The notes under the pieces were generated by a model that saw only the letters and a program-made list of their open reading frames with translations, was not told the DNA's origin and ran no database searches. Positions 22,966 to 60,700 of a stretch of DNA of 64,000 nucleotides are shown piece by piece. The DNA comes from Schmidtea nova (lineage: Eukaryota). Numbering within the stretch: the first letter of the stretch is position 1; every line of letters begins with the position of its first letter. Location of the stretch: assembly GCA_044892505.1 (NCBI GenBank), contig CM097882.1:157480001-157544000 (forward strand). The letters are read 5' to 3'. Both the position numbers and the translations under genes were made by a program.

Positions 22966-23599
22966 CATTCGTTGAAGTTTCAAGTGTTGGGTTAGTACAG
23001 AAAGAAATATAGTGAGAATTAAATAATTAATTAGGAAAAGATAAAAGTTAATGAGAAATATTAAAAATAAACAAGCTGAGAAGTAAGCATTAACAAGAAA
23101 AAGCAAAATTAAAACAAAATGAAAAATCGACGAAAAAATGATAATAATATGAAAATGAGTAGAAATTAGGAAATAAGAAGAATTAAAGAAAATAAATGTA
23201 ATTAGTAGAAAGAATAATAAAATAATAACAAATAGAAACAGAATAATAAAATAAATAAAATAATATATAAAAACGGGTCATTAGACCAATAGAATATTAG
23301 CTGAATTCTGATTGGCTACCTGAGAGCTGATTTTAATATATAAGGAAGCGCTCAAGATAGCATTAAATGGTCATTATATACCAGTAAGGTGTGTCATTAT
23401 TATCTACCAAACTACAAATTTTTGCATCCAGCACATATTTTGTATCATTTGTATCCCAACACTCGGAGGAACACTTTTTTTGGAACCAATCTTGAATTGG
23501 AAGAAACTGTAAGCTATTTGTGTTGTTTTCAATAAAATTTTATGCTAATAACCATATTTGTTTTTATTCATTCATATCATGCGTATAAATATTGCGAGG

Positions 23600-26585: not shown

Positions 26586-26725
26586 GGTGATGGTCTGCAA
26601 ACAGTGAGCATCGAAAAATTCGAATCTATGATTGACCGCAAATTTCCTGGGTTCAAGGTCTACTGATAGAAAGTATAATGCCCATTTGAGTCCCTTTTTC
26701 AACGATTTATCTACGGATACTCATT
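26586..26725 (+). repeat. Dispersed structured repeat, 3' half
   Basis: gcaaacagtgagcatcg...ctatgattgaccg...ctactgatagaaag...gccc. Confidence 0.75.
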
Positions 26726-28649
26726 TTATATAGGCAATTTTAAAATAAAATAAATTACATCAATAAAGATTTATGAAGTTATGCCAATCAACCATCGCAA
26801 ACACCAAAAATTACAAATAGTGTGATACATCACTCCAGAAATATGTCCAAATATACATATAGTAGCTATTAAGTTCGTTAATTAATTATTATATTTAGTT
26901 ATTTAAAGTTGGCTAATAAATGTTTGTTATTTAATGTAAGTTAGTAAAAGTTTGCTAATAAAAGAGATATTCTAGAGCCCGAGAGAGTCTTCCAAAGAAC
27001 TTTGTGGAGACACTTGGGGTGCTTGTTGTGTGTGAGACTATAATAATACAGATAAGCAACAGATTGTAATTAAATAAACAAATTATCAACCACAAAATGT
27101 ATTAATAAAATGTTACTTAGTTATTCTTCTTTTATTTTTTGGTAATCGGATAGTAAATATTCTCTAATAGTAATGGCACTTTTAATTTTCTGTATTCGGA
27201 TAGTAAATATTTTTTCTGTCAAGTATATTTTCAATTACAGGTATAATTACAATTAATTGCATCCAAAAAAATTTCATATTAAATAATCAATTTCATTTAT
27301 TTGTAATTGGGCTTACTATAGCAATTTGCTATAGCAAGCCAAATTCAAATTTGTAATTAAAATTATAAAAAAATAAAAATCCCCATTATAATTAAAAATA
27401 CCGTGCTCACAATAAATTGAAAAAAGGGGGGTTCCTGTATACACAATACCACCCACAATAATAAAAACAAATATCAATCATTCCTGTACACTACAGTAGC
27501 CATAGAAAAAATAAAATCAATTCGAACATTCTCAGAGAGTGTTAAGGTTTGGGGTTTTCCTGCCTTCGATGTTGTTCATCTCAAATTCGAGTTAGATGTC
27601 CGATGAACCTTTTTGAATGTCTAAAATTTAAATATTCTATTCAATCAACATGCGTTAAATCACACCAAAATGCAAAACATCGTCCATGTATTTATTTCAT
27701 CTACACAATCATGCCCAAATATGTGTTATATACCACCCGATTCAGAATATTTAGGGAAAACTTTAGTTATTAACTCACCCTTGGATTTTACGTCGAAATT
27801 CAGGAACGAAAAAAATATTTTCGAACCTCAAAGAGGGTGTTTTTTCCATAATTGACACTAACTTATTACACTTTCTATTTGTTATCNNNNNNNNNNNNNN
27901 NNNNNNNNNNNNNNNNNNNNNNNNNNNNNNNNNNNNNNNNNNNNNNNNNNNNNNNNNNNNNNNNNNNNNNNNNNNNNNNNNNNNNNNNNNNNNNNNNNNN
28001 NNNNNNNNNNNNNNNNNNNNNNNNNNNNNNNNNNNNNNNNNNNNNNNNNNNNNNNNNNNNNNNNNNNNTTATTGCCATAAATTTTATTTAAGATTAATTA
28101 AAAGTATAACTAAACTACAAAAGTTCTAATAAAATATAGAAAATTAAAATTAATTTGAATCCGCTCCGAGTTTAGTGTAACCTGGCAACAACTACTGGGC
28201 AGAATCTTTTTTATTTTAATTTTAAATTAATCTTCCCTTTATGCCTTTAGATTAAAGAAAAATATAGTTGATTTATAAATATATTAGTAATTGTTTAAAC
28301 TTTTACTATTACATTATCCAAATAAGAGCTAAAAAATTTAAATCCATATAGACCTTCTGTAGGCGCAAACCAAGGGAAACAAATTTTGATTGTTTGATTA
28401 TGTTATATTAGGTAACTCATTTCATATTTTACTTATTGATTTTTCATCTAATTTTAGATTTCCGGAATCTCGTAATTCCAATGGGTAAGGTGTTAATTTA
28501 AGGTTATATCTATTTTATTTTAGTATTCAGCTCACTCAGTATACCACGCCTCAATGCATCCTAGACTAAAACGTCATTCCTCCAATCTACAAGATTATTC
28601 ATTGTTTGATCTTGATTGCCGTCAACATGTTTATTTATTATATATATTT

Positions 28650-37163: not shown

Positions 37164-38917
37164 TATTACAGGGCAACAACAACAAACAGAAAATGCTTTC
37201 TTCATCATGTAAAAAGATAATTTGAATAAATATTATGTGAATAAAGCAATGTAAAATAAAGAATTGATATTTAACTTAACATATTAAATAAATTTAAAAT
37301 ACGCCAATATAGCTCTAAAAACATAATAAATAGTTATTACTCAATAACTGCCCGTAATATATTTCTATGTCACCCTTAATAACAGACCGTTGGTGTATAC
37401 TATTGGTTGTCAGCAAATGCATTAAGAAAAAATGATATCAATTGCTGCTCATATAACTGGTCAAGCTGTTTATAGATATTAAAACCACAACCAAATCAAT
37501 AATAACAGTCAGATACAATTCTAGAATTTCTGTTTAAACAAAATTCAACGTTTCTAATATACTAAAACAAATAAATTATCATAAATGGTTCTTCACAAAT
37601 GTTCATTGCATTAACAAAAGGGAAAATATATCAGGAGTTGCAAGCAAATTAGTTGTTTGCATTTAAATTAAAGTTATCAATCTGTTTTTTTAACTTTTGA
37701 TCCTTTTGAAATTTCAACTTTAAGAACTTCTTTTTTCGGATATATTAATTCATTCAATAAATCTATTAAAACTTCATTCAAGATTTTATTTACGTCATCG
37801 TCTGATTCTGAACGGAAATTATAGGGCTTTGATTTTGGCATTTAGCAAATTTATGTCTACAATTTGTATAAATAATCCTTTCATCAGGTAAAAATAAAAT
37901 ACATCTTATAAATAACTCTTCAGGCTAAGTATATATCACAACATCGATAAATAATTTAATTAAAAATACATTAGAAAAGATGAATAAATGATTTATTATA
38001 ACATTGACAAATAATTTTTTTGACCGAATTTAAAATAAAAACGGAAAATGTTTTCATTTTTTAATTGTATCAATGCAGCAAAACAGACTTGACACCAAAC
38101 AAATATGCAGTGAGAATTATTGTACGTAAAATAAAAAATAAATAAAATCAAAATGAACTAATAACCAACATAAAAGAGATTCGAAATTAAGCAATTTAAT
38201 AAATTTAATTCTACAAGATTAGTAAGATGTGAGCCAATAACAGTAAAAAATACCTTCCGCTCCCACACCAAGGGTTAGCGAACTATTTCTAAAAAAACTA
38301 CCCACGCCAAAAATTGTAATGTTAGTGTATGGGTTTATTGTTTTGTTGTGAACATGACATTTGTTCACCGTAAACATGACACCTTCATGAAATACAAATA
38401 ACCTGACTCATGAACCCGTAAATGCTCTAAGTTAAATATGTTGGAAATGCACACGATGGTATAAAAACAAGTGAGTAGGTGAGCTTCATTACCGAAACTA
38501 CTCATTGCATTATCCTTTTGGGTTCCTGGCTCCCAATAGAAGGTCTTACGCACATAGTTACGTTTTCTTTCAAAGGCCCATAAATTTTCTAGATTTATTT
38601 GTTAGTTCAAAAATTTCACAGGGTTCTGCCTGCATCTCTCGATAAAAATTCTTTACTCTTTGATTTTAGAAATTACTTTATTTTCCCACCCGATTGAGCG
38701 CTGAATAAGTCAAGGAAACCGCGGTTATGTGCAATTTGCGTAAGAAATTCTATATCTGCCAGAGCATTAACTCGAGAAAGCTAAAGGCGACGCGTTAGTC
38801 GAATAGAACCTTCAATGATCCCAAGAGACCACTAAAGATCCATTCTATCTAAGTTTACTTCAAACCATTTGAGCCTGCAAAATTGATTCTGCAAAACAAA
38901 ACAAAATTTAACTTTAT

Positions 38918-39152
38918 GGTGGGTTGTTGATCGTCAATATGACCTTGACGTTGCTATGGCTCTCATCAACAACTCAACACACAAAACATTAGATTTAACC
39001 ATCTTGTTGCCCGTCACAATGTAACGTTGGTAATGCAACAAATGGGTGGGTATTCGCAATCAGTGAGCGTCGTCAATAGGAAACTATGATTGACCGAATA
39101 TCTCATGGGTCCAAAGGCTACCGATAGAAGGTTAAATGCCCATTTTGTCCCT
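38918..39152 (+). repeat. Dispersed structured repeat, full copy
   Basis: Four hairpin domains; aligns with the other copies. Confidence 0.9.
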
Positions 39153-39366
39153 CCTATGCATTATTTACTTTAAAAAAAATCATGAGTTATATCGAACTAA
39201 ATTTACTACTAAACCTCAGTTGATTTTAGTCAATTTATTCCCTTCAAACATTCAAACTAATAAATATTTCAAATACAAGAGAAAACTTTAATGTTAACAA
39301 AAACAACAACATAAACTACAAAGTAAAGCAATAAATACAAGATAAAATATTAATTGTTGATTCATA

Positions 39367-39630
39367 TCACAACAACGTAATGTTAATTCCTTCTGAGGAC
39401 TCTTTGCGGATTTGCCCCAGCAATCTCGCTTCCTGACGACGTCTTCGTCGAGCCCTCACTCCTTTGTTGGGTTTCTGTCTTGTCATTTTTGCTGGAACCG
39501 GAGGTGTCAGGATCTCTTCTTCGACCCTCACTGGAAACAATTCTTGAGGTGGACATGAAGATTTCGGCAAGATGGCAGTGATAATGCCGTTTTTATCGCC
39601 CTTTCGTCGATAACCGGAGCGTTCCCACAA
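39367..39630 (-). CDS. Small Arg-rich protein near an LTR-like 3' end
   Basis: NGIITAILPK...ELFPVR...KGVRARRRRRQEARLLGQIRK; protein-level homolog at ~46400-46620 on plus. The ORF opens at TTG, so the true start is uncertain. Confidence 0.5.
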   Translation of the reverse strand: MWERSGYRRKGDKNGIITAILPKSSCPPQELFPVRVEEEILTPPVPAKMTRQKPNKGVRARRRRRQEARLLGQIRKESSEGINITLL

Positions 39631-40364: not shown

Positions 40365-41015
40365 TTATCCCACTGGGTAGAATTTATTGTACACTGTAAC
40401 CACCTTTGATGAACCGGAAACCACACCAAGGTATTCAGATTTTTGGCGTGGTTGCCGATTCATAAATTTTATATTTGTTCCCTCGCTTATCACTTTACAT
40501 AAGTTTACAAATAAATCTAAATATACTTTTGTTTTCGAATGTCTGTAGTTGGTATTCAGCTTACGGCAATTTGTTAACATATACTCAGTCATGCCAAATA
40601 GCAGGGAAAGAAGGATTCCAGGTCGAAGCAAAGATCGATCGAAATCATCGGGTAATCCCCCAAGGAGGATCTCATAAGGAGGTGTTCCACTGCCGGCTTG
40701 CTTATTAGAAAGTACTTGTCCAATCACTCGGAGCGTGTAGATAAAATTGTCAGAAAATGTAATATTTATTTGATAACCAGTTTCTATATAAATCTTAATT
40801 GTATCACTTTTCTTTATTAATTGATTGAAAGAGACGTTGAAAAATCTGTAAAATTTAAGAATAAGATTGGAAGCATAACACCAAGTTTTGTAAATGTCTA
40901 TGAAAATATCAAACATGCAGTTTACCAAAATTTCATGAATGAAAATAAAAGGAGGTCTCAAAGATTGAATAACCATATAAAATGATACACACATGGATTT
41001 GATAGTACAGTACAT
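40365..41015 (-). CDS. Intronless 216-aa ORF of unknown function
   Basis: 651-bp open frame in very AT-rich DNA, overlapping the end of the upstream ORF; no motif recognised. Confidence 0.4.
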   Translation of the reverse strand: MYCTIKSMCVSFYMVIQSLRPPFIFIHEILVNCMFDIFIDIYKTWCYASNLILKFYRFFNVSFNQLIKKSDTIKIYIETGYQINITFSDNFIYTLRVIGQVLSNKQAGSGTPPYEILLGGLPDDFDRSLLRPGILLSLLFGMTEYMLTNCRKLNTNYRHSKTKVYLDLFVNLCKVISEGTNIKFMNRQPRQKSEYLGVVSGSSKVVTVYNKFYPVG

Positions 41016-42100: not shown

Positions 42101-42399
42101 ATATTTATTTTTTCTTTATTAATTATTGCGCGGGTTAACCGCTTAACAAACTCTTTTAAACAACAAATAATAAAATATTCAAATAATAAAATTTTTACAT
42201 ATCTAACAATTTTTTTTACAATCTTGATTTACATAATTTTTAAGATACATTAAACACGCATAAACATTTATTTATGTTAAAAATTCATATTCAAACGTGT
42301 GTCCACAGAACATTACACCACCATATAATGAATAAAATTGATAGGAACTTTTAAAATTACCGGTGAGGTGAGCATGTATGATTTGGTACAATGTAAAAC

Positions 42400-44930
42400 C
42401 ATTGGGGATTCTGGATTTTTAGCCGATAGTTCAGATGAGTTTTGTAAATAACGGGGTTGTGAATTCCTATGACATTTCTTGCATGGATATGTTGTACGTT
42501 GTGGTCTGGTGAAACAAATTGAAATAAGTTCGGAGATGTGTGTATGTATGTTTTATAGTACGTTAGAAATGAATGCCCTATTGTTATGATTTTATGTGAT
42601 TGCGTGTGTTTGTATGTTGGGAATGATACTGCGGTAAGAGGCTATAAACAATGGATGGGATTAGATGAATATTTGTGGGGATCGTCTGGATGTATGTTGC
42701 TAGTGGATATTGTTAAATGAAACTACGTTGTGTATGTTGGTGAGTGGATGTATTGTTTATGGTATTATTTAGCATAGAAGCTCCTATTGATTGAAATGTG
42801 GTAGTGTGTGTGTATGTGTTGGTAACTGAATGTATTTTTGTATTGTATTAGGTATGAGTGTTACTAATGAATGAAATGGATGTAAATTTTTGCAATTAGG
42901 GATGCATTATGATTTTGTGATATCGTGGGGGTACTTTATAAAATAATATATATTTATATATAAAATATTTTCAGTATTAAAATAATAATAATAATTTTTA
43001 TAATAATTTTTACAAATTTTAAATAAAATTTCTAATTTTTAAAATATACATTTTTGAATTCAAATTTTTAAATTTCAAGATTTAATATATTAATCGTAAA
43101 TTTTTTCTATGAAATTTCGAATTTGGAATTTTATAAAATGATAAAAAAAATTTATATAATAACAATATTTTCGATTTGTAATTTTCATGGGTTTCAATAT
43201 AATTTTTGATTTACTAATTCTTAGGAAAACTTTTGGTTTACAATTTCTCATTATAAATTTTTCGCAATATAATAAAAAGTAAAATTTTATTTTTTATGAT
43301 CTATAACGAAATCTACACAATAATAAATTTTTATCCAAAAATTTCGTAATCCAAATAAGAATTCAATCTAAAAATTTTTATATACTAAATAAAAATAAAA
43401 GTAAAATAAATTATAAATTCTTCAAAGAATAATTTTTGACATCGAGTAAAGTGAATTTTGGTTTCGTTCGAGCATGAATTTCGCAACCAAAGTGCGCCCA
43501 AATTTTTCGGGACACTTCACTTAGAAACTTCAGGCTCCCGTAAACAAGGTTCACTGGAGAAAATTATTTAGATAATGAATGAGGTTTAATTCAGATCAAT
43601 CAATACTTGTCTTCATAATTCGTTTCATTTCGTGATCATTATATCAGCTCTGAGCATTATTTCAACGATTCTCTTTTCAATATTAGCTTTCTATTCTACT
43701 TGTGTTTTTCGGATAAGATGGTAATTGTTGTGAGAGTGAAGGCGAATGACGTGTAAAATATTCTTGTACAGATAAATTATATAATGAAAAAGACATTGCT
43801 GGATGAATTGACATTTACGTTTTTATGTAGTATTATGTTTTAAGTGCTCATTATGTTAAAAAATTATAATTCCAATAAAATACACTAGTATAAATTATAG
43901 ATCATTAATATAATACCTTGCCCTTGGTCAAGCCACTGTTCCCCAGTTGGGTTGAAGTGATCATGGATGTTTGGGCGTATCACCTGAACTCGGAAATATG
44001 GGCTGATCGATTACGAATCGAACCAGTGATCCACTCAGGCTACTTCCACCCGCTCGGCACAAGGCCAGAAACAGGTTTCAGGGGGTATGGAAGAAAAAAG
44101 AATTATTACTTTTATCTTGGTACAATAATTATTATTATAAAATAAATTTTTATTCCATCTGGGAATTTATGACATGATTAAATTTAAATAATGAAAAACA
44201 AAGAAAAACAACTTTCATTTAATATTTTGGATAATAATTAAAATTGATGATGATAATATAAGAATAATAATCAATAATATAAAATTAACAATAATAAAAT
44301 AATACTGGGTACGGGGTAATTGAAGGAGCATGATGTTCAATGACCCCGCACCGATCAAAAGAATGATACTTACAAATTTTTCTGGAAAATTCGAGTTCTT
44401 CAAAATTAAAATTTAAAAAATTTCTTTCATCAAATTCTCACAAATTCTGATTATTGCCATTTTGATGGCGGTATATATACCATCGATTGTGTGTTACCTT
44501 CACTAGTGCAGTAAAACAAATTGTTCTAGAATGTTCTTTTTAGTTTTTCTAAATTAATTCTAATGATTTTCCGCCGAATTAAATCAATATTTTTACGTAA
44601 TAATTTTTTATAAACTATAATTGATTTATTTTAATCCAAAATATTTATTTTTGAATCAGAATTTATTCAATTTGGTTTAATTTGCTATATTTCGATCAAA
44701 ATTAGTTCTTTTTATCTTTAATGTGAAATTTAATGGTAAAATCACAATTTTCTTCTAAAATTTTGTTAATTTTGTCTGCACTGAAGTTTTATGACACAAT
44801 TCTGTTCTTTATGGGTATTTTCAATGGGTTTTCCGCCTATTCTAACTTTCAAACATTCTTCTTTTGACAACTTTTAATTTTTCTCAAGGTTTCAGTGTAA
44901 GGACTTGCAGATTCACAGCTAGCGCTGTCG
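42400..44930 (-). mobile_element. LTR copy B (lacks the terminal ~170 bp; left boundary uncertain)
   Basis: 42850-44930 aligns with 49270-51450 and 1570-4100. Confidence 0.75.
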
Positions 44931-46753: not shown

Positions 46754-46894
46754 ATTATATTTTCTGTTCACATATTAAACTTTCCTTATTATAATAAAAG
46801 TAATTAACAGTAATCATATGAATCGATCGTAGAACCTCAATAATACTTTTTATCTGAGTATAATTGAAACAAATAATATAGCAAGTCATGTTAA

Positions 46895-47125
46895 GGGACT
46901 TAGAACGTGCACTGAACCTTCTATCGGGAGCCCTTGAACTCAATGTGATGTTCGATCAATCATAGTTTCGATTTTTTCGATGCTCACTGTTTGCGGACAT
47001 CCATCCGTATGTTGCATTACCAAAGTTACATTGTGACGGGCAACAAGATGGTTAAGCTAATGTTTTATGTGTTGAGTTGTTGAGCCACAACAACGTCAAG
47101 GTCAAATTGACGGTCAAAAACACAC
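46895..47125 (-). repeat. Dispersed structured repeat, inverted copy
   Basis: Reverse complement of 38918-39152. Confidence 0.85.
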
Positions 47126-47559
47126 CAATATTATAAAAATTACCCTTAAAATTTTAAATTAGTTTACAGAAAATTATTGATCTTCGATAACCCCCTTTAT
47201 GAAAAAATGAAATAAAAAAACTATATGATTTTATATATATAAAATTTATTTTTAAGATTCAAGCTTAGGAGAAAATATTTGTGCAACCTGATTATTTGCT
47301 CATTTCTATCGTAAGTTGTTGTATATTTTATATATTACACCAACAGTCTGTAATTAAGGGCCAAAAAAACACTTAATACAGGCAGTTGGTATTTATTAAC
47401 TAAATATTTTTTTTAATTTAATTTTTAACTATGTATTTAAGCTATTTTACCATATTTTAAATTTATTTAATATTTTTAGTTAAATACAAATTTATTTTAT
47501 CTAGATATTTTTAGATATTTATGAAATACATAAAAAAGTAAGTTTTTATAATTTTATCA

Positions 47560-47880: not shown

Positions 47881-48010
47881 AAATTTTAAGTTAAAAGTTA
47901 AAAATTCAAAATATTTTTCGTTTTTCGTTGTTTTCTTTCTACAGTTTCGGCCATTTGAGGCCTTAACGCTTCATTTTCTGCATTTCTAAAAATATCTTTT
48001 TTTAAATATT

Positions 48011-48262
48011 GGTGGGTTGTTGATCGTCAATATGACCTTGACGTTTCTATGGCTCTCATCAACAACTCAACACATAAAACATTTAAACTACCATCTTGTT
48101 ACCCGTCACTATGTAACGTTGGTACTGTAACAAGTGGGTGGGTATTCGCAATCAGTGAGCGTCGTCAATACGAAACTATGATTGACCGAATATCTCCTGG
48201 GTCCAAGGGCTACCGATAGAAGGTTTAATGCCCATTTTGTCCCTTCTTCGACGATTTATCTA
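48011..48262 (+). repeat. Dispersed structured repeat, full copy
   Basis: Aligns with the other copies and shows a compensatory pair change. Confidence 0.9.
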
Positions 48263-48789
48263 TAAGCTTTCAATAAAAATTTTCATCGGAAATTCAACAT
48301 AAACACTCTACATAACTATAAATTCATTATTGTATCCAAACAAATTATTCCGAGCATCGAAAACACTAATATAACCTTATATTTTACCAATATTGCATTT
48401 TATGATAATTAATACATAAAATATTTTATTTTTATAGAAAAATTTTAATCTGCATTTGAAATTTAAGAAAAACTCTAATTATTACCGTAATTTTATCGAG
48501 TTTAGAAATAATAAAAATAAAATTTCCGTTTGCTTAAAATTGCTAATTTAATCAAAAGGACGAATTTACTCAATTTAAAAATTATATTAATTTTAAATGT
48601 AATTTTCTGAATTTTTCACTAAATTGATTAATTAACGATTTATATAGTTCAGATCAACAAGAAATGGATCTCTCCAGAAACTACAAAGCCAGAGGAAAAT
48701 TCTCCCACCCCAAATGGGTCAAACCAACTAGAACTCGAGCTCCTACGAAGCAAAATAGCCAGCTCTACCGACCAAGTAAAATTTTGATT

Positions 48790-49803
48790 ATTTTAGAATT
48801 ATAATTTATTTTGAGCAATTTTAGAAAATTTCTTGAAGAGAATATGTTGGAACTGGCCCTTCAAGCACTGTAAACTGGAAAAATCCTTGCCGGAGATTCT
48901 TATCCCTCAAACTGAATGACCATCAATTTTTATCAATAAATTTTTAGATAATTTTTTTCGTCTTTACTCTTTTTCGTTTGAGTTTTTATTATTTTTATGA
49001 AATTTTTGTAAATGGGAAATTAAAATAAACTGTAATGTAAATGGCCTATTTGATTGTACTAAGTTTGGCTGGGTATATTTAATTTTATATGGTATGGTTG
49101 AATGATAGATATAAGTGAATGAAATTTTGGTATGGTTTTTCTGGATGTATGATGCCGACTAACATAACTGTGTAGAATTTTCAGTATGGTTTGCTTGTGT
49201 GTATATAACTATTGAATGCTAATAAATGATACTGTGTATGTGTGTATATTGTATTTTAAATATATGTTGCCTGTGTATTAGTATGGGAAATGTTATTGAA
49301 TGAAATGGATGTAATTTTTTGCAAATAGGGATGCGTTATGATTTTTGAGATATCGTGGGGGGTATTTATAATATACTATATATAAATTATATAAAATATT
49401 TTTAAAATTAAAATAATAATAATAATTTTTATATTAAAATAATAATAATAATTTTTATAATAATTTTTATAAATTTTAGATTTATAATTTTACGAAAGTA
49501 ATATAATAATAAAATTTCTAATTTTTATAATATATATTTAATAATTTTTATAAATTTATAATTTTATGAAAATAATATAATAATAAAATTTCTAATTTTT
49601 ATAATATAAATTTTTATAATACTTTTTATAAATTTTAAATTTATAATTTTATGAATATAATAATAAAGTTTATAATTTTTATAATATACACTTTTATAAT
49701 ACTTTTTATAAATTTTTAATTTATAATTTTATGAAAGTAATATAATAATAAAATTTCTAATTTTTATAATATACATTTTTATATTCGAATTTTTATATTT
49801 TAA

Positions 49804-49837
<34 letters not shown>

Positions 49838-51620
49838 AAAAAATTTTTCCTATAGAATTTTGAAATTTTGGATTTTTTAAAATGATAAAATTTTCAATAT
49901 AATAATAATATTTTCGATTTAAAATTTTTATTGGTTTCAATATAAGTTTTGATTTATAAATTCTTAGGAATTTTATAAAATGACAAAATCTTTTATATCA
50001 TAACAATATTCGGAGAATTTTTGGTTCACAATTTTTCATTATAAAAATTTTTCCAATATAATAAAAAGTAAATTTTTATTTTTTGATCGAAACGAAATCC
50101 ACATCATAATAAATTTTTCATCCATAGATTTCGAAATCTAAATAAGCATTTAATCTAAAAAATTTTTATATGCTAAATAAAAATAAAATAAAAATAAGTT
50201 ATAAATTTTTCAACGAATATTTTTCGACATCGAATAAAGTTAATTTCGGTTTCATTATTATTCCATCGGATTTGAGCATTAATTCGAACGATTTACTTTT
50301 TAATATCGGTTTTTAATATCCTGGATCTTGGATGAGAAGAAAATTATTGTGAAGGTGAAGGCGAAGGACGAGTAAAATGTTTTTGCATAATTATTTTTCC
50401 TAATGGAAAAGATGTTGCTGGAGAGATTGGTTTTTACGTTTACATGTGGTATTAATTTTCAATATATCAAAAATTATAAATTCGGATAAACTACATTTAT
50501 TATAAATTAATATCATTAATATAATTTCTTGCCTTGGGCCAAGCCACTGTTCCCCAGTTGGGATGAAGTGATCATGGATGGTTAGGCTATTCACCTGAAC
50601 TCGGAAAAATGGACTGATCGATTTACGTATCGAACCAGCGATCCGCTCAGGCTACTTCCACCCGATCGGCACAAGGCCAGACACAGGCTTCAGGGGGTAT
50701 GGAAAAAAAAATTTATTTAGTTACTTTTATCATTTTTTAAGATAATATTGTGGATTTAACTCTCTGAGATTTTGTGACAAACAAAAAAAAATTATAAGTA
50801 AATATTTTAATATTCATTCGATAAAAATAGCATAACAATAATAATATAAAATTATAAAAATATTACCGGTACGGGGTAATCGAACAGGCATGGTGTTCGA
50901 TGACCCCGCGCCAACAAAAGAATAGGACTTACGAATAAATTAAAATTTATAAGTTTTCTTGAATAAAATTTCACAAAATTCTGATAAATTCCATTTTGAT
51001 GGCGGTATATATACCATCGATTTTGCGTTACCTTCAGTAGTGTAATAAAACAAATTGTTCTAGAATTTTCCATTTAATTTTTCTAAATTAATTCTAATGA
51101 TTTTCCGAAAATTAAATCCATATTTTTGTGTAATAATTTTTTACAAAACACAAATAATTTATTTTAATTCCAAATTTTTGTTTTTGAATCGAAATTTGTT
51201 CGATTTGATTTAATTTACGATATTTCGATTAATTTTAGTTCTTTTTATTGTTAATGTGAAATATTTTGATAAAATCACAATTTTCGGCTAAAATTTTTGT
51301 TAATTTTTTCTGCATGAAGGTTTTTATAACACAATTCCGTTTTTTGGGTATTTTCAATGGGTTTTGCGCCTATTCTAACTTTTAAACGTTCTTCTTTTGA
51401 TGGTATTTGATTTTTCTCGAGGTTTCAATGTAAGGGCTTTCAGACTCACAGCTAGCGCGTTCTCTACTGGTTGATGTGTTGTGAGTCCACTTCACCTTTT
51501 GTTGTTTTTCACTTAATTGCTTGGATTTTTAATGGATTTTTGGGTTAAAACTGAATCTTGCGCGCTCTCTACCTATGGGGTTATCGTTTTATTAAAACAG
51601 TTTGTGGTTTTTGCCCAACA
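48790..51620 (-). mobile_element. 3' LTR (copy C) of the giant Gypsy element; left boundary uncertain (~48300-48790)
   Basis: Begins TGTTGGG on minus at 51620, ~1.2 kb downstream of the polyprotein end; homologous to copies A and B. Confidence 0.8.
50998..51018. promoter_or_regulatory. Palindromic TATA element in the LTR
   Basis: gatggcggTATATATAccatc, conserved at 44464-44484 and (TATATAAA) at 3646-3666. Confidence 0.5.
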
Positions 51621-52844
51621 TAAAATACTCGGGGGCCCGCAAAAATTGCGTCCCGCAATTTCTCAGAGGGGTTAAGAACCAAGACTAATCAAAGGTCAAA
51701 AGGTTGTACATTATACACGAGCTACTTGGTCGTGATCATGCCGTTCGCGACAATAAAAATAAAAAGTGATAAAATTTAATAAAAAGTTAATATGTATACA
51801 TTAATATGAGTCTACATAGACTCGCAAGCAAAAAAAAAATTAAATATAATGTAATATATGTGCCTACAGCGGCTAATCAAAGTTCAATATGAGTCTACAA
51901 CGACTCGGATAAAAGTTTTATAAAATTCAGTTAAATTGTTTATATTCTGGTACTTGACGAATAGTATTGTATTGGTTGTTCTATTGTAAATTGAGGATTT
52001 GTTTCTCGTTTTCTGGGTCGTCTTGGGGATTGTTCCGCTTTGGTTGACATAGTTGATAATTCATTGGATAATAGCACGGAGCGAGTATAAGGTGATTGAA
52101 TATGCTCCGTAATTTTCTCAGTTCGGTCTTGATTTGGATCATATAATTCGGGTTTTCGGATGTGACCGCTCGTAGTTCATCATTTGACTTTGTCCATTCT
52201 TTCATAGATTATCTGATCTCGATTCATTGGACGATTTATTAAGGTAATTGTTCTGGAATTTGATTGATCGTAGGTGTGGATTTTGATTCTTGCTTCAAAG
52301 GTTTGATTTTTCTCTTGATTGGAGCTTTGTTTTAAGATTTTGCTGGCTCCCTTTTCGCATTATTGCTTTTAATTGTTTCTTTCAAATTTTTCTTGATTTA
52401 ACTTAGGTTTCTGCTTCACTTTTCTGGTTTGGATTGTTTTGATTTCATTGACTTTCTGATTTGTCTGGTCTTGATGTTTGATAATTTTTGTTGATGTTCG
52501 GTCTTTTTATTCTCTATTTTTTCTGATTTACTCAAATATTTTTCTGGCTCTCCGATTAATTCATTTTTTAATGGTAACTTTTCTGCGAACAAGCTTGACT
52601 TTGACTTTAAATGATCTCTTTAATTTAATTCGACCAGTTTTTTTTTTTTTTTTTTTTATAATACAAATAATCATACTTTTATTATAATATATTTTGTACA
52701 TTATTTACACTTCATTTTGTTTATTACACCAACGTCTTTAAGATACACACATTTTTTTGATTTTTGGTGTTTTTCATTATACAATTTTCTCATACTTTTA
52801 CGATACTATATATTTTGTACATTATTTACACTTTGTTTCGTTTG

Positions 52845-53471
52845 TTATACCAACGTCTCCTGAGGGCCGAAATATAGGTTTCGCATTCCCCCATACAATT
52901 CATTTGTAGTTCGATATATATCTGCTTCTATTATTGACGGATTTATCGTTGGTGGTAGTCCTTGCATCCACATTCCATTGAATTCTGATCCATTGCATAT
53001 CTCATATTCGTCTTCCGTCTTTACTTCTTCTAAACTGATTCCATATTCAAACTTCTCGATGCTTGGCCATTGTCTCTTTCTTTTCGGTTTTCTTTTACAT
53101 CTTCCAGTGATTTTTGCATGTTGTGTGAGAATCAAAACCAATATTGTGCCTATTATTCCGGCAGTTATCCATATCATTTTGATTGCTATTTTTGATTCTT
53201 CTACTGCTGCTGATATTGTTGTTGGAGATTCCGTTGTTGTTTGTACGATTTTGATCGGTCTCCCTCCTTGAATTATTCGTTCGGCTTCTTCCTCCGATAT
53301 ATATTTATTATAAACTGTTGATTTTGTTGTTAGTATTTGATCTTCTGTACTGAATTTTCTGGTATCGTCTACTCGTCTAGGTAATTTTGAAATAAATTGA
53401 CATGTTGGATGTTCATTTAATTTTTTGTAGAGGCATACCCGGTATTTAGTTCCTCGTTCCCATCCGGCTAC
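52845..53471 (-). CDS. Frameshifted continuation of the polyprotein: end of FN3-like repeat 4, Thr-rich stalk, TM helix and cytoplasmic tail
   Basis: The -1 frame is open from ~53495: VAGWERGTKYRVCLYKK...TTTESPTTISAAVEE...MIWITAGIIGTILVLILTQ-HAKITGRCKRKPKRKR... Confidence 0.8.
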   Translation of the reverse strand, partial: VAGWERGTKYRVCLYKKLNEHPTCQFISKLPRRVDDTRKFSTEDQILTTKSTVYNKYISEEEAERIIQGGRPIKIVQTTTESPTTISAAVEESKIAIKMIWITAGIIGTILVLILTQHAKITGRCKRKPKRKRQWPSIEKFEYGISLEEVKTEDEYEICNGSEFNGMWMQGLPPTINPSIIEADIYRTTNELYGGMRNLYFGPQETLV

Positions 53472-54770
53472 ATAATAATAAATGATTTTTCTTCTTTATT
53501 GCTCACACTTTTACACTTTTCTTGTTGTAGTTTTACTTCATAAATGCATATTCTAGCAATAAGATGTCCTTGTACGTTTTTGACTTTTATAATATCATTT
53601 TGAAAGAATTTTTCGGTTTCTTTTTGTATTCGGTTTGGAGTGATTGATATTGATATTTCTTTTCTGTAACCTTTGACTATCGTTGGTTTCTCTGTTACAG
53701 TTATTGTTGCTCTTGGGAGTCTTATTGCTTTTTCAACCGGTTCTCTCCCGCTTTCTGTGCTTGTTATTATTTGTTCTGTTGTGGTGTGTTCTTGACAAAT
53801 TGGGACTAACGTTCTCCATATGCATATTAGATACGTTGTCTTTGATTCTAACTCTTTGATTATCATTTGTTCCTTTCCCTTTACTGACTGTTGATAGCAT
53901 TTGCTAGGGTTGTCAAGCCCACTATTCATATCGACCTTTCTCCAACAAACCTTTTTGATTACTTCGTCATGGTTGTTTATTAGTATTATTTCCGTGGATT
54001 TCGTTTCTACTATCAGAGGGTAATAAGTAGTTGTTCCATTGGTTGTTGTAGTTGTCGTTATGATTTCCTTGGTGAGTTTTTCTAGACATAGTTTTTGTGT
54101 CCATATTCTTCTTATGCATATCGTGTAGCTTGTTCCTGGCTTCAATCCTGGTATTCTGAATTTTCCAATTTGGCCTGTCATTTGAAATTTACACGATAAT
54201 TGTCTGTCTTTATTTTGCATATGGATGGTTTTTATCCAACAAATTTGAGTTATAGGCTCTATCACCTTGTTTGTTATCATCATCTCTTTTTCTTTCACTT
54301 CTATTGTTGTTTTGTTCTGGATCGTCATCATAATCTTTTTATCTTGCTCTTCTTCTTCGTTTTCTTCTTCATTTTCATCTGTTGAGGTTTTTGTGACACT
54401 TTGTATTTTTTCTAGCTTGTTCCTCTCGTTTCCCATTTTCGTAATCTTTTCTTTAGCTGCACAGATTGCTCTTATTTGATTTGTCCGATATACACATATT
54501 ATATACGTTGTTCCTGATTCGAGTTTTTCGATCTTTTGCTCTTCTCCTATTGCTAATGCTGTTCTTATGCATTTCTGGTGATCACTGACTCCATTTTTCC
54601 GTATTGCAACTGTACATATTTTAATTATTAGCTCTCCTTTGATATTCGTTATCCATATATTTTCTGTATCTGTAACTATTCTCGCCTCTGCTCTCCTCTG
54701 ATCAAATATGTAATCAATTGCTTTCACCCAATTCAACATTGTCAATAATATTGTCATAATTATTGTATTT
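53400..54770 (-). other. Second signal-like segment plus four FN3-like repeats
   Basis: NTIIMTILLTMLNWVKA; repeats LESGTTYIICVY, LKPGTSYTICIR, LESKTTYLICIW, WERGTKYRVCLY. Confidence 0.75.
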
Positions 54771-57700
54771 TTACCTGGATTTTTAAGTAGACATACCGTT
54801 CGATTTTCATAGTTGGAATTTTCTTGTCCATTCTTGTTCTCTTTATTTTCGTCTTCGTTTTCGTTGTTTTTATTCTCCCATTTGTCACTGTTTCTGTGAT
54901 TTCCGTGATCGCTGTTATTATCATTTAGCTGCTGTTCATTGCTATCGTTGTCTTTATCGTCTGATTTGCCGTCATCGGGATCGTTCAGATCACCCTCGGT
55001 TTCTTTTAAAATGTCGTCCTCGACATTTATATCTTTGATTATTTCCCAATATAATTTGATAATTCTTTGTTCATCTAATTTTATTTCACCCATTTTGCAT
55101 TTCAATGTTCCAGCATCGTCGTGAAGATAACTCTTGTCTTTATTTTTGATCTTTTTTCGCCATTCTTTAACCAATTCAAGTAGTTTTTCTCTCTTTGTTT
55201 TTATTTTCATTTCTTCGTTTGGCTTGTTTGTGAATCTGAAGTCTGATCTTTTTAGTAGTGCTTTTGCTACTCTAGGTAATGTCCAATTTTCAATCAAAGC
55301 TCGCTCCATTAACACGTTTTTATCATTTTTGAACTCGTTGTTCACATTCATCAGTCCTTCTCCAGAGAGTGGATCTTTCCATTTTATCATTTTTGTAGCT
55401 ACTATTTCGTCTTTTCTCATTACTGCTCTTAATAATGGCTTTGGATTTAAACTCAGGATTTTAATGTCCTCTTGACTTGCTTTTGATAAAAGGTACTTGG
55501 CTATTGTATAATAAGGTGATCTGTAAACGTATGATAGTACAGTTTCATTGTTGTTATCCCTTTCTTTGATACTTGACCCTGTTCTTAGTAACTCCTCGAT
55601 TAAGTCTTTGGACCCTCCTTCTTCTACTGCTAGCATTAATGGTGTTTGTCCTTTCCAATTTTTTATATTCGAGTGTTGTCCACATCTTTCCATGAGTTTA
55701 ATTATTTCCATAGCTCTTTTTCCTTCTCCCTTCCTCAAGGCTACATTTAGTGGTGTTTTCTCATTGAAATCAGTCATTGTAAATAATATTGGCATTCGCT
55801 CCTTGATTATATTAATAACTTTTGGTGTTGCCTTTCCTCTGGCATAATCATCTATTATCCGATTTAGTCCGTTTATTATTTCGAATACGTGTTTGCCTTC
55901 TGTCCATTCCGGCATAATCTCTTTTGCTGTTTCTATTATCAGATCCATTTCTTTTATATGTTCGATTCTCGCATCATCCGTTATTTCTTGCTTAATTTGT
56001 AATGTTGGACTTCTCATCTTTGGTGCAAAGAATGTTGTGTCTCCAAAACATCCACATCCTTTACTCTTTCTAAGCATGCATATTTGTCTTGTCTGTGATC
56101 TGGTCATTATTCTCCTTTCCTCTGGTTCTTTTGTCGCAGTTTTTTCTACTCGTTTACATCTACACACATTCACGTATATCGGTCGAACTAACGGATTGTT
56201 GACTAATTTTACCCGGATATTATTTTTGCTAACAAATATGACTTCATATGGTCCTTTTCCCGTTCTCTGTAATTTTTTCGCTGTTCCTGGGATGATTTCT
56301 GGTGTTTCGACTATCACCCAATCGCCTAGCTTGAACTGATGTTCATGTACATTTCTCTTTTTGTCGTGTAGTTCTTTGTAACTCTCTTGATTGAATCGTA
56401 TATTCATACCTGCAACTTTCCAAATTTCTTGCATTCGCTCCTTGAATTTTGTTACGTAATCATCGATTTCCATATATTGTGATATTGGTGGTTGATATTC
56501 AAGATCCATTGGCATGTTGCATTCTCTGCCGTACATCAATTTAAACGGACTCATTTTTGTTGCCGAGTGAATCGACATACGGTATGCCATTAGACATAGA
56601 TTCACATATTCATCCCAATCCTTTTGGTGTTTACTGACATAATTTGACATCATCTCAATCAATATTCCGTTAAATCTCTCCGTTTGTCCATTTGTTTGGG
56701 GATGATATGGTGAAGTTCTCAACTTAGCTATTCTGAAATAATTGGTAACTTCGTTGATGATCTCGCTCATAAAATTTGTTCCTTGATCGGTTAAAATTTG
56801 TTTTGGTGTTCCATATCTACAACATATTTCTTCGACTAATATTTTGGCTATTGTTCTAGCTTTCTGATCTGGCATTGCAAATGCTTCTGGAAATTTTGTT
56901 AAGTAATCAGTTATTACTAATATATAAACATTTCCATGATTTGTTTCTGGTAAGGGTCCTACTACATCCATTGCGATCATTGTCATAGGTTCTGGTGGAA
57001 TTGGCATTGGTTTTAAAGGTGTTTTCATTTTACTGCCAGTGCTTTTTCGCGTTGCACATATTAGACAATTCCTAATCCATTCTTTCACGTCTTCCCCAAT
57101 ATTTGGCCAAAAATATTTCTGTTTTAATCTCGCTTCCGTTTTCTTAGCTGACATATGTCCACCAAGTTTTCCATCGTGGTATTGCATCAGGATGTCTTTC
57201 CTTCTACTTTCTGGTAAACACATGAGTCTTTTTTCTCCGTCCATTGCTAATAACCAGCCTTTTTCAATTGTATATTTGTGCCTGTTTTTCTCCATATGCT
57301 CCTTTAGTTGGCTGTTATGCTCAAAGATTTTCATATCATTCTTATTCAAATATTCGATGATTAGTTTTAGCTCTTCATCTTCATTTTGTTCCTGTTGCAG
57401 TTTAGTGAAATCAATATCTTCTGCGATTATCATACATATTCGCCTGACATCTTTGTCCATTAGTTCTTCAAACATAAATCTTGACATACAATCCGCATTT
57501 GCGTTCGCTTTCCCTGACTTTAACTTTATATATGGCGAATATTCTTGTAGCTGCATTGCCCATCTCATCAATCTGCTTGACGCTTCTTTATGCTGGCCTA
57601 ACCATACTAACGGTTGATGATCTGTTGTGATGTATATTTCGTGACCCCACAATAGATATTTGAAATGTTTAATCGCCTGAATGATTGCTAGCGCTTCTCT

Positions 57701-60700
57701 TTCCGTTACTGAGTAATTCTTCTCGTGTTTTCGAAAGGTTTTGCTGTAGTATCCTATCACTCTTTCTCTCCCATCTTCATCCCATTGTCCTAGTACGGCT
57801 CCTGACGCATATCCACTTGCGTCGGTTGCTAATAGAAATGGTTTTTTGAAGTCTGGGTGTACTAATATTGGCGATGAAATTAATTTGTCTCGCAATGCTT
57901 CGAATGCATTTTGTTGTTCTCTTCCCCAGATAAATGGTGTATCTTTTTTGACTAGCTCTTGTACAGGCTTTGCAATTCCCGCGTAGTTTTTAATAAATTT
58001 CCGATAATAACCGCATAGTCCTAAAAATTCTTGTATTTGGGTTATGGTTTTCGGTATTGGACAATTTTTTATCTTTTCGATATTTCTTGGGTCCGGCTCT
58101 TTTCCTTTAGCTGATACAATGTGACCCAAAAAGGTAACTTTTGGTTTTGCCCAATCACATTTTGAGGGTTTTAATTTTAATTTCCATTGCCTTAATCGGA
58201 TAAATACGTTTTGGATATCTTGTAAATGTTGATCGAATGTACCCGAGTAAATCAATAAATCATCAATATATACCATATATTGTTTTATCCCGTGAGTTAC
58301 AAAATTCATACATCTTTGGAATGATGCAGGTGCATTAGTTAAACCAAATGGCATCTTTTTGAACTGGTACAGATCTTTTCCGATGGTAAACGCTGTTTTC
58401 TCTCTGTCCTCTTCTTTCACTTTGATCTGCCAGTAACCGCTTTTCAAATCTAATGACGTGAAGTATGCTGCACCATGTAATGTTTGTAACATTTCGTTGA
58501 TATCTGGTAACGGGTATGTATCCCTCTTGGTTACTGCGTTCAATTGTCGATAATCAATACAAAATCGTTGGGTACCATCTTTCTTTTTTACCATTACTAC
58601 TGGAAATTGCCATGGTGAACAACTTGGTTCAATCACATCTGCGTCTAACATCTTTTGCACTTCGGCTTCGGCCACTGCTTCCTGCGCCTCCGCTAGTCGA
58701 TATGGTCTCAATGTGATCGGTGTTTCGTCTGTTAGGGGAATAGTATGTTGAGTTACATCACTCGTTCCCAAGTCTAAATCAGATGCTGCAAAGATGTCTT
58801 TAAATTCTAACAATACTGTTTTTAGTTGTTCTTTTTCAGTATCGTTTAAAATTTCACTGTCGATTACCCATAACTCTTCCACTTTACTCTCATCCTCTTG
58901 AATTTTAGGTAGTTCAATATTCAACATCGGGGTTAATTTTCCCAATCTCTCGTTTTCGTAGATGATTTTGTCTTCCTCGTCGAAATTGGTGATGTTGATT
59001 GGTATTTCGTTTTCTTTGTTGACGTTCACTATTTCTCTTGCCAATGGTAACTCTTTTCTCATCTCAAAATTTTGATTTGGTTCAAATATCATTTCACCGA
59101 CTGCCGTGTCTTTCACTTTGGTGAAACATATCATTTGCGTTCTTCCTGGTACGACAATTTTCTTTGAACACCTTACTTCCGTTTTCATTGAACAGATTTG
59201 TCCGCTTTTATCTTTCAACCTCATCGTACTCAAATCGATAACAATCTCCTTTAGTAATTCTGGCATTAAGTCTGTCCCAATGATACATGAGGCACCCAAT
59301 TGTTTTATTACAGCTAAGTAAGTAGACATCTCTACATCTTTATACTTAATATCTGACCATATTTTCCCAATAACTTTGACGGATTCTTTATTGCACGTGA
59401 CCACATCCATTGGTGCTTCTTCAATGCAAGGCCATAACATGCCTGGTATCATATTCATGTTTATTGCTGATATATTTGCACCGGTATCTATCATTGCATC
59501 CATTTCAACACCGTTGATTTCAATGGCAATAGTAAGGGTTGGTCCAGCGGATGTTCTCATCATGGCTATTGTCATTGTTTCTAGATTTTTCTCTTCGCTT
59601 TGTGGTCTGTTTAGTATTGTTGGGTCTGGTCTGTTTAGTATTGCTGGGTCAATCATTGCCCAATTTGGTTCGTAATGTGCTGGGTAGAAATTTGGCATTG
59701 GTAACATTCGTAGTCCAGCTCGTGTTTTTTCTCTCACTGTTCCTGGTCTTTGTGGGTTAGGGTATGTCATTGGTGGAAGATTTTGACCTTCCCATTGTTT
59801 TGATTTTTCTGCTTCCCATATTGGTGCGGTACCATTTGATCCGGAGTTCGCTCCTCCTTGATTTCCTTTATCATCGTTATCACTATCGTCATCATCCGAG
59901 TCTTTCCTTCGGTTATCCCACCATCTTTTCCATCCACTACGTCTGGTTTCTTTGTATTTCGTTCTCTCTGCTTCGTTTTTCATAATGAATCTAAATTTTC
60001 TACCGATCTCTTCGTCGGTTCCTTTCATCTTGGTCAGTATTCCAATTAACCTCTTTATTCTATGAATGTCTTTTGAATGCCCATGCAATACCATAGTTTT
60101 AGCCAAAAATGGTAGGAATCCAAGTGCCATTTTCCAATTGATTTGTCTCTCTCTTTTATAGATATCAAAACAAGCTAGCATCTGAGTTATAATAACTCTG
60201 ACTATTTGAATAATTAGGATTATCCCTAATATTCCTGCCATCATCTGTCCAAATACTAAGAATTTTCCCCACATAGCTTTCATCATATTATTGGTTGCGT
60301 GTTTGAAATGTTCTGGTGACAACAATAACTCGTAATTCGGACTTCCCACGAAATTTGTTCCACCGGTTATGGCTATAATATTTGATAGTACTGCTTGTCT
60401 TTGGGTTGGAAATAGTATGTGCTTTCTCGCTGCTTCTAAATCTGCATCTCTGTACACTCCACTGTGTGAAATATCTATGGGTTTAAATTCTATTTCTGTT
60501 GTTAACTCTGTTAATCCAAATCGTTTAGGTGCTGATACAATTTGCCGATTTGGAAATACTACCCATTTTCCATTTCCCATGTCATACATTGGTCCATACG
60601 CATTACTACAATTGAACTGATGGGGTTCGTAATTTGGTGGATTTATTATTCTCGTTACTGCTTGTACAAATCGACTTCTTCCTTTATAGAATATTTCCAA

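What the first reader, a model, noticed from the sequence alone, without database searches (positions are those of the whole stretch)
38918..39152. Dispersed ~240-nt repeat with four hairpin domains and compensatory mutations
Seen in six places (4258, 22711, 26586, 38918, 46895 inverted, 48011). Domain 1: gttgttgat/atcaacaac enclosing cgtcaa/ttgacg. Domain 2: ttgttgc/gcaacaa, which becomes ttgttac/gtaacaa at 48096-48133 (a double compensatory change). Domain 3: ggtattcg/cgaatatc (agatgttcg/cgaatatct at ~22838) enclosing gtcaa/ttgac and atag-GAAA-ctat. Domain 4: cta-ccga-tag within ggg/ccc. There is no ORF, TIR, polyA or clear tRNA. Inference: an unannotated structured RNA or SINE/retrozyme-like element.
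Basis: partly seen in the sequence, partly recalled or inferred. Interest (0 to 1): 0.75.

Follow-up and report, generated by a model that had tools for sequence, protein, structure and literature searches.

The report
Folded leader RNA of giant retrotransposons
The repeat is one end of the long terminal repeat of giant Burro-type retrotransposons; read on the opposite strand, it keeps one base-paired RNA fold across about ten diverged families, and this fold likely helps the element's RNA hold its tRNA primer and start being copied.

Summary
The repeat is real but is not a free-standing RNA, SINE or retrozyme. It is the primer-site (U5-side) end of a 1.8-7.3 kb LTR of giant Gypsy elements with Burro architecture. 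Of 20 sampled copies, 12 are solo LTRs with 4-bp target duplications. Window 48010-51620 has a 99% twin across a gag-env-pol interior. A tRNA-Pro primer site lies 10 nt beyond the repeat.

Ten other LTR groups keep the fold with different stems: 22 of 40 pairs change on both sides. G-U pairs (45 versus 7) and GNRA loops (83 of 84 copies) put it on the gag-pol strand.

A conserved GRACCC motif complements the freed T-arm of tRNA-Pro, like retroviral primer-activation signals. Most likely role (inferred): a leader domain for primer loading, reverse-transcription start and packaging. Expression, RNA ends and function are untested.

The parts
38917..39152 (-). Primer-site (U5-side) end of an LTR, holding the conserved RNA fold; the folding strand is minus, the gag-pol strand
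38921..38975 (-).
38999..39045 (-). Domain 2: helix, 4-nt bulge, 2 bp, AAC bulge, hairpin; in other families the loop carries UAGGG complementary to domain 1
39049..39102 (-). Domain 3: helix, U/CAC internal loop, 7-bp helix with an invariant U-G; GNRA loop in other families, 6-7 nt loop in this family
39104..39112 (-). GRACCC motif complementary to the 5' strand of the tRNA-Pro T-arm (primer-activation-signal-like; inferred)
39121..39131 (-). Nearly invariant motif CCUUCUAUCGG, role unexplained
39132..39138 (-). 5' strand of a closing helix that pairs with 38980-38986; supported by one-sided changes only
39153..39589 (-). Continuation of this LTR (89% to solo LTR L056 1-689), cut at 39589; holds the end of an LTR-borne ORF with no Pfam hit
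42605..44925 (-). Further LTR sequence, probably the rest of this interrupted LTR; far end missing
48010..51620 (-). Complete 3,611-bp LTR; 3' LTR of the element whose twin LTR starts at window-equivalent 73005 (L031:9005); target duplication ATAT
51621..51660 (-). Inner junction before the 3' LTR: conserved hairpin and GC-rich motif, no polypurine tract
53468..64000 (-). Polyprotein ORF (continues beyond the window): MATH, fusion glycoprotein, protease, RT, RNase H, integrase, ankyrin
38320..38587 (-).
1..4257 (-). Solo LTR starting 777 nt before the window, inserted into domain 3 of another copy; target duplication CTAT
4273..4335 (-). Partial copy, domain 1 only
22710..22983 (-). Older, truncated LTR end with the whole domain
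26597..26795 (-). Truncated copy, domain 3 onward
46862..47127 (+). Older, truncated LTR end in the opposite orientation

Best explanation
The repeat is the primer-site end of the LTR of giant Burro-type Gypsy retrotransposons, and on the gag-pol strand it carries a covarying RNA fold that likely acts as the 5' leader domain of the element's RNA during primer loading and the start of reverse transcription. Shown: LTR end, 4-bp target duplications, tRNA-Pro primer site 6-10 nt beyond it, shared fold in about ten families, sense-strand polarity. Inferred: transcription starts near the far edge of the fold, so the segment is most of R-U5. Inferred: the 3' 18 nt of tRNA-Pro anneal to the primer site and free the 5' strand of the T-arm, which then pairs with the GRACCC motif about 190 nt upstream, as proposed for the HIV-1 PAS and Rous sarcoma virus U5. 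Inferred: the GNRA hairpin and the loop-loop contact compact the domain or seed dimer formation and packaging.
For: LTR identity: twin 99.05% over 2,946 bp; 12 of 20 copies with exact 4-bp duplications; 4 of 5 elements of other families with twin LTRs and 4-bp duplications, and 4 of 5 with RT about 90% identical. Primer site: the host tRNA-Pro complement matches 18 of 18 nt in the nested element; 19 of 30 sampled primer sites are followed by this segment after 10 nt. Fold: 91% of 914 cells paired, 22 of 40 pairs changed on both sides, 0 of 500 shuffles reach the score, slid controls 35-43%. Strand: RNAalifold -24.7 versus -13.5 kcal/mol; 45 G-U versus 7 A-C in 374 positions; GNRA in 83 of 84 copies of other families. 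T-arm complement: best site in the whole domain in 9 of 11 groups; at least 6 contiguous pairs in 87 of 94 and 84 of 86 copies. An element in which Pfam found no RT shares the same LTR end, as expected of a cis signal used in trans.
Against: No RNA data, so expression and start site are unknown. The finding's own family lacks the GNRA loop and the loop-loop complement (mean 3.2 bp, equal to shuffles). Within that family, covariation follows subfamily splits. The T-arm match is 6-8 bp, has shuffle fractions of 0.00-0.10 on only 30 shuffles, fails in 2 of 11 groups, and GGUUC is common to most tRNAs (own knowledge). The A/G variation in GRACCC is explained equally well by a 3-bp local helix. The HIV PAS model is itself disputed (PMC3185550, passages). 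I drew the structure from these same sequences, which favours it over slid controls, and 11 of the 45 G-U pairs are one invariant position.
Confidence: 0.6

Rival explanations
1. The fold is mainly a dimerisation and packaging signal, and the tRNA T-arm match is incidental.
For: Complementary motifs of 5-8 bp between the domain-2 loop and domain 1 in 6 of 9 groups, with one compensated change (GGGA/UCCC to GGGU/ACCC). This resembles the Ty1 kissing hairpins (PMC5454406, abstract).
Against: The complement is absent in the finding's family, the commonest one, and in two small groups, whereas GRACCC is kept in nearly all copies.
Confidence: 0.2
2. The fold works at the RNA's 3' end or in expression: polyadenylation control, export or stability.
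For: The sequence is in both LTRs, and R and the poly(A) site are unmapped.
Against: Fixed distance to the primer site and a motif matching the primer tRNA point to the 5' copy.
Confidence: 0.1
3. The fold is a ribozyme of an undescribed class that cuts in both LTR copies to define the RNA ends.
For: Invariant unpaired bases, bulges, a GNRA loop and a loop-loop contact suggest a compact tertiary fold; no polypurine tract in 8 junctions hints at unusual replication.
Against: No Rfam ribozyme match; retroelement leaders explain such folds without catalysis; the finding's family has lost two of the tertiary features.
Confidence: 0.06
4. It is an independent SINE, retrozyme or small RNA gene.
For: Some window copies are short and isolated.
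Against: Target duplications enclose 1.8-7.3 kb LTRs, not 240 nt; primer site and gag-pol are linked; no tRNA or hammerhead match.
Confidence: 0.02

Closest known systems
Burro / GYPSM1 giant Gypsy LTR retrotransposons of planarians (PMC6431247, section 7 read)
   Same: Interior of 21.4 kb between multi-kb LTRs; retrotrans_gag with CCHC knuckle, MATH, fusion-glycoprotein env ahead of protease, RT, RNase H, integrase, ankyrin; BIR and RING in a nested relative.
   Different: In this copy gag (880 aa) and the rest (3,945 aa) lie in separate frames, where Burro1 has one 4,873-aa ORF; no BCL2-like hit by Pfam. The section read says nothing of an LTR RNA fold, primer tRNA or polypurine tract.
Ty1 5' TIPIRT domain (PMC5454406, abstract)
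   Same: A folded 5' domain of roughly 300 nt serving packaging and reverse-transcription start, with two hairpins carrying complementary motifs.
   Different: Ty1 is a yeast copia-type element primed by initiator tRNA-Met, with the domain reaching into gag (own knowledge); here it lies wholly in the LTR before the primer site, about 5 kb from gag. No sequence relation was tested.
HIV-1 PAS/anti-PAS and Rous sarcoma virus U5-TΨC pairing (PMC3185550, passages and reference titles)
   Same: A short conserved leader motif complementary to the T-arm of the primer tRNA.
   Different: Here it is predicted only, lies about 190 nt from the primer site and matches tRNA-Pro; the primer site is 6-10 nt from the LTR end, against about 2 in typical retroviruses (own knowledge).
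Retrozymes and SINEs (recalled)
   Same: Dispersed non-coding repeat with hairpins.
   Different: No hammerhead or tRNA head; part of a coding element's LTR.

Membership tests
LTR of an LTR retrotransposon | Two direct repeats flanking an interior | tested here: met
   99.05% twin of 48010-51620; 98.7-99.9% twins in 4 of 5 other elements
LTR of an LTR retrotransposon | TG...CA ends with short inverted repeat | tested here: met
   12 solo LTRs and the window LTR start TGGTGGG and end CCCAACA
LTR of an LTR retrotransposon | Short fixed-length target duplication | tested here: met
   4 bp in 12 of 20, 3 near the window, 4 of 5 in other families
LTR of an LTR retrotransposon | tRNA primer-binding site after the 5' LTR | tested here: met
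   host tRNA-Pro complement, 6-10 nt after the LTR
LTR of an LTR retrotransposon | Polypurine tract before the 3' LTR | tested here: not met
   longest purine run 6 nt or less in the last 60 nt of 8 of 8 distinct junctions; usual but not what defines an LTR
Ty3/Gypsy | Order protease, RT, RNase H, integrase | tested here: met
   residues 1492, 1804, 2050, 2263-2434
Burro-type elements | Giant size (interior up to 25 kb) | tested here: met
   21.4-kb interior, 28.6 kb with LTRs
Burro-type elements | Env-like fusion glycoprotein between gag and pol, in frame with pol | tested here: met
   PF24664, E 6.9e-69, ahead of protease in the same ORF
Burro-type elements | MATH and ankyrin domains; gag with CCHC knuckles | tested here: met
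Burro-type elements | BIR and BCL2-like motifs | tested here: inconclusive
   BIR only in the nested relative; no BCL2 hit by Pfam; no profile-profile search run
Burro-type elements | Single polyprotein of about 4,900 aa | tested here: inconclusive
   this copy has two frames of 880 and 3,945 aa; other copies not checked
Burro-type elements | Sequence identity to named Burro1-4 / GYPSM1 | not testable with these tools
   no repeat library held; the original paper is not held
SINE | tRNA-, 7SL- or 5S-derived head | tested here: not met
   no such Rfam match in the window at E up to 1
SINE | Short element with its own target duplication | tested here: not met
   duplications enclose whole LTRs
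Retrozyme | Hammerhead ribozyme in the LTR | tested here: not met
   no Rfam ribozyme match
Primer-activation-signal-like element | Complementarity to the freed T-arm strand of the primer tRNA | tested here: met
   best site in 9 of 11 groups; 171 of 180 copies with 6 or more pairs
Primer-activation-signal-like element | Needed for efficient start of reverse transcription | not testable with these tools
   needs a primer-extension assay

The most novel reading that the evidence does not exclude
Burro-type elements use a priming architecture unlike textbook LTR elements. A 230-280 nt tertiary leader fold grips the tRNA-Pro T-arm from 190 nt away, the primer site sits 6-10 nt off the LTR, and there is no polypurine tract. 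In its place is a conserved hairpin and GC-rich motif that can pair with the primer-site region and close the RNA into a circle. Second-strand priming and end trimming would then follow an undescribed route; in the boldest form the fold itself is catalytic (about 0.06).
Probability: 0.25. Interest if true: 0.75.

Novelty: new variant of a known kind. Interest (0 to 1): 0.45.

Why it matters
Structured leaders have been worked out for retroviruses and yeast Ty1/Ty3. This gives a covariation-backed model for giant env-bearing Gypsy elements of an animal, from natural variation in about ten families of one genome. It yields concrete tests on a short isolated RNA (tRNA T-arm contact, loop-loop contact, strand) and a marker for finding divergent LTR families that BLAST misses. 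The missing polypurine tract and long primer spacer raise a testable question about how these elements prime second-strand DNA. The element class itself is known, and the repeat is not a new host RNA.

Tried and rejected
Single-copy folding was not significant on either strand; a larger shuffle run timed out and was redone smaller, where the finding's family gave z +1.2 for domains 3-4 on the sense strand, against -1.5 to -4.2 in the ten other groups.

Rfam: nothing at the repeat in the window or in the domain of 12 other-family loci. The generic eukaryotic tRNA-Pro 3' end was not found; the first tRNA search returned loci whose main tRNAs did not match the primer site; a pattern read from the element found the matching tRNA-Pro.

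RNA data: no RNA holder listed. Of four contig sets laid, three had nothing on the stretch and one was of unknown kind, so this says nothing about expression.

A core-motif pattern gave 3 viral and 48 metagenome hits, 0 of 51 with the full architecture. The first helix parser mis-anchored domain 2 in two groups and was corrected. Likeness to pistol, hairpin, HDV, group II domain V and k-turn motifs was judged by eye from memory and not kept. A TATA-like TAAAT lies at a similar distance in three LTR subfamilies but not in other families (by eye); not used. DNA transposon and Helitron readings fell. Earlier scan notes: none in this genome, one unrelated bacterial hit sharing 2 of 84 words.

Full report
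Observation. The repeat is present at all six places, four as full copies and two as fragments. It is abundant in the genome G000 (1.25 Gb): 1,813 first-look candidates, with the 40 scored at 96-100% identity. In the 30 loci fetched, the left edge is sharp at TGGTGGG with mostly unrelated flanks, while the right side runs on into several subfamilies of longer sequence. The finding's copy alone folds no better than dinucleotide shuffles on either strand. Rfam has no match at the repeat.

It is an LTR end. The copy at 48010 begins a 3,611-bp unit ending in CCCAACA at 51620. A twin lies 21.4 kb away beyond the window, 99.05% identical over 2,946 bp, and resumes at 99.7% after a 24-kb nested element. 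The pair is enclosed by a 4-bp duplication ATAT, the nested element by CTTA, and the solo LTR ending at 4257 by CTAT. Of 20 copies extended to 10 kb, 12 are solo LTRs with exact 4-bp duplications, 3 hold a second LTR start and end at an internal junction, 2 have decayed ends and 3 show no far end. The 12 are 1.8-7.3 kb long. All align at 91-97% over the first 240 nt of the window LTR; none aligns over positions 363-1082, and 4-11 align at 63-90% over the later part. The finding's own LTR runs to 39589, is interrupted, and LTR sequence reappears at 42605-44925 without a far end.

The element is Burro-type. On the minus strand the interior holds an 880-aa frame with retrotrans_gag and a CCHC knuckle. 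A 3,945-aa frame follows, whose in-window part has MATH, a Monjiviricetes-type fusion glycoprotein, protease, RT, RNase H, integrase and ankyrin in that order. PMC6431247 (section 7 read in full) gives this architecture, including env between gag and pol, as the mark of the planarian Burro/GYPSM1 elements. I could not compare sequences with named Burro entries; the original description is not held, and its supplements may describe LTR ends or primer sites. I did not test the host's identity.

Which end. On the gag-pol strand the repeat is the 3' end of the LTR. Ten bases after it comes a site complementary to the 3' end of a host tRNA-Pro(TGG), with 18 of 18 nt matching in the nested element. 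The site occurs 3,107 times in the genome. In the first 30, 19 were followed by this segment after exactly 10 nt, and 11 by other LTR ends about 6 nt away. So the segment is U5, and probably R as well (inferred; ends unmapped).

The fold is real and lies on the sense strand. Of 744 primer sites with the shorter spacer I took 90, plus L192. They form six clusters (24, 23, 14, 11, 9, 2) and eight singletons. I dropped three interrupted singletons, L192 and one copy without the terminal motif, leaving 86 copies in ten groups. In the 11 tried first these had no BLAST alignment of the domain to the finding's family, yet they keep the same motif order with different stems. Five such elements were followed inward: all have a related gag, four have RT about 90% identical, and four have twin LTRs with 4-bp duplications. 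For my 40-pair model, 91% of 914 cells pair and 22 pairs change on both sides; none of 500 shuffles reaches the covariation score, and slid partners pair at 35-43%. Many positions show three to five pair types. The model came from these sequences and the shuffle ignores kinship, so this is strong support but not a P value. With strand-neutral scoring, 374 helix positions in 11 groups hold 288 Watson-Crick pairs, 45 G-U, 7 A-C and 34 others. The domain-3 loop reads GNRA on the sense strand in 83 of 84 parsed copies outside the finding's family. The closing helix has one-sided changes only and fails in two groups, so it is the weakest part.

Among 151 copies of the finding's family, the strongest column correlations follow subfamily splits. 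Only three pairs are compensated (14, 45 and 6 copies). The GAAA hairpin exists in 1 copy, and gtcaa/ttgac is broken in about two thirds. This family has a 6-7 nt loop in place of GNRA. It also lacks the 5-8 bp complement between the domain-2 loop and domain 1 that 6 of 9 tested groups have. It is thus a reduced variant of the fold.

Mechanism. When the 3' 18 nt of tRNA-Pro bind the primer site, the 5' strand of its T-arm is set free (established for tRNA priming; own knowledge). The conserved GRACCC motif is the best partner for that strand in the whole domain in 9 of 11 groups; the two misses are single copies. At least six contiguous pairs form in 87 of 94 copies of this family and 84 of 86 others. 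PMC3185550 (passages) describes such a contact for the HIV-1 PAS, notes a like one for Rous sarcoma virus U5, and reports that the HIV model is contested. PMC5454406 (abstract) describes a Ty1 5' domain with complementary hairpin motifs needed for transposition. I therefore commit, at about 0.6, to a leader domain that positions and activates the primer, with dimerisation and packaging as a likely second role. The match is short and can also form a local 3-bp helix, so it needs the bench test.

An odd partner feature. Before the 3' LTR there is no polypurine tract in 8 of 8 distinct junctions from three families. A conserved hairpin and a GC-rich motif stand there instead. In the window's element this stretch can pair with the spacer and primer site (-18.6 kcal/mol against a shuffled mean of -11.9; 2% of 300 shuffles; one element tested). 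This recalls the Ty1 cyclisation signal and the split primer site of Ty3 (PMC11381356, passages, for Ty3; Ty1 recalled). How second-strand DNA is primed is left open.

Novelty. The element class is known. I found no description of this RNA fold in Rfam or in searches for Burro with planarian, LTR and retrotransposon, Burro1, ribozyme with LTR retrotransposon and planarian, gypsy U5 covariation terms, Burro with primer binding site and Dugesia with RNA structure. I saw listings only for these, apart from the papers named above and passages of PMC11410931. Most subscription papers and Repbase are not covered. The motif pattern found no true relative in viral or metagenome contigs (0 of 51 hits). 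Verdict: a new variant of a known kind, interest 0.45.

Noticed in passing
window 51621-51660; L361, L365, L373, L377: No polypurine tract before the 3' LTR; a hairpin and GC-rich motif shared by several families, partly complementary to the primer-site region.
   Followed up: partly
L031:8995-9004; loci L187-L216: Primer site lies 10 nt (this family) or about 6 nt (others) from the LTR end, longer than usual; implies extra trimming of the cDNA end.
   Followed up: partly
L032-L034 (window-equivalent 75935-100232): A 24-kb element nested in the twin LTR shares the same LTR ends; its seven scanned frames gave protease-ankyrin, TRAF-like (RING, zf-TRAF, MATH) and IAP-like (BIR, RING) hits but no RT or integrase: likely non-autonomous.
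   Followed up: partly
window 39385-39589 minus; L050, L044, L045: One LTR subfamily carries a sense-strand ORF of up to 187 aa with an arginine-rich stretch inside the LTR; no Pfam hit for the 67-aa window part.
   Followed up: partly
window 1-4335, 38320-38917; L011, L042, L048, L051: LTRs are often inserted into other LTRs, twice into the conserved domain itself; whether this is a target preference was not tested.
   Followed up: no
window 10034-12694: Penelope-like element (RT and GIY-YIG) with an 813-bp inverted repeat.
   Followed up: no
window 21365-21964 minus: Exons of a serine/threonine protein phosphatase gene.
   Followed up: no
window 40365-42115 minus: Two ORFs of 217 and 385 aa without Pfam hits inside the insertion that interrupts the finding's LTR.
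   Followed up: no
G000:C1:459.61-459.66 Mb (L179): Tandem tRNA-Pro genes at 308-bp spacing; 1,117 matches to the 3'-end pattern genome-wide.
   Followed up: no
L192: A more distant LTR end with the same primer site and the GTGAGC core but without the terminal motif.
   Followed up: no
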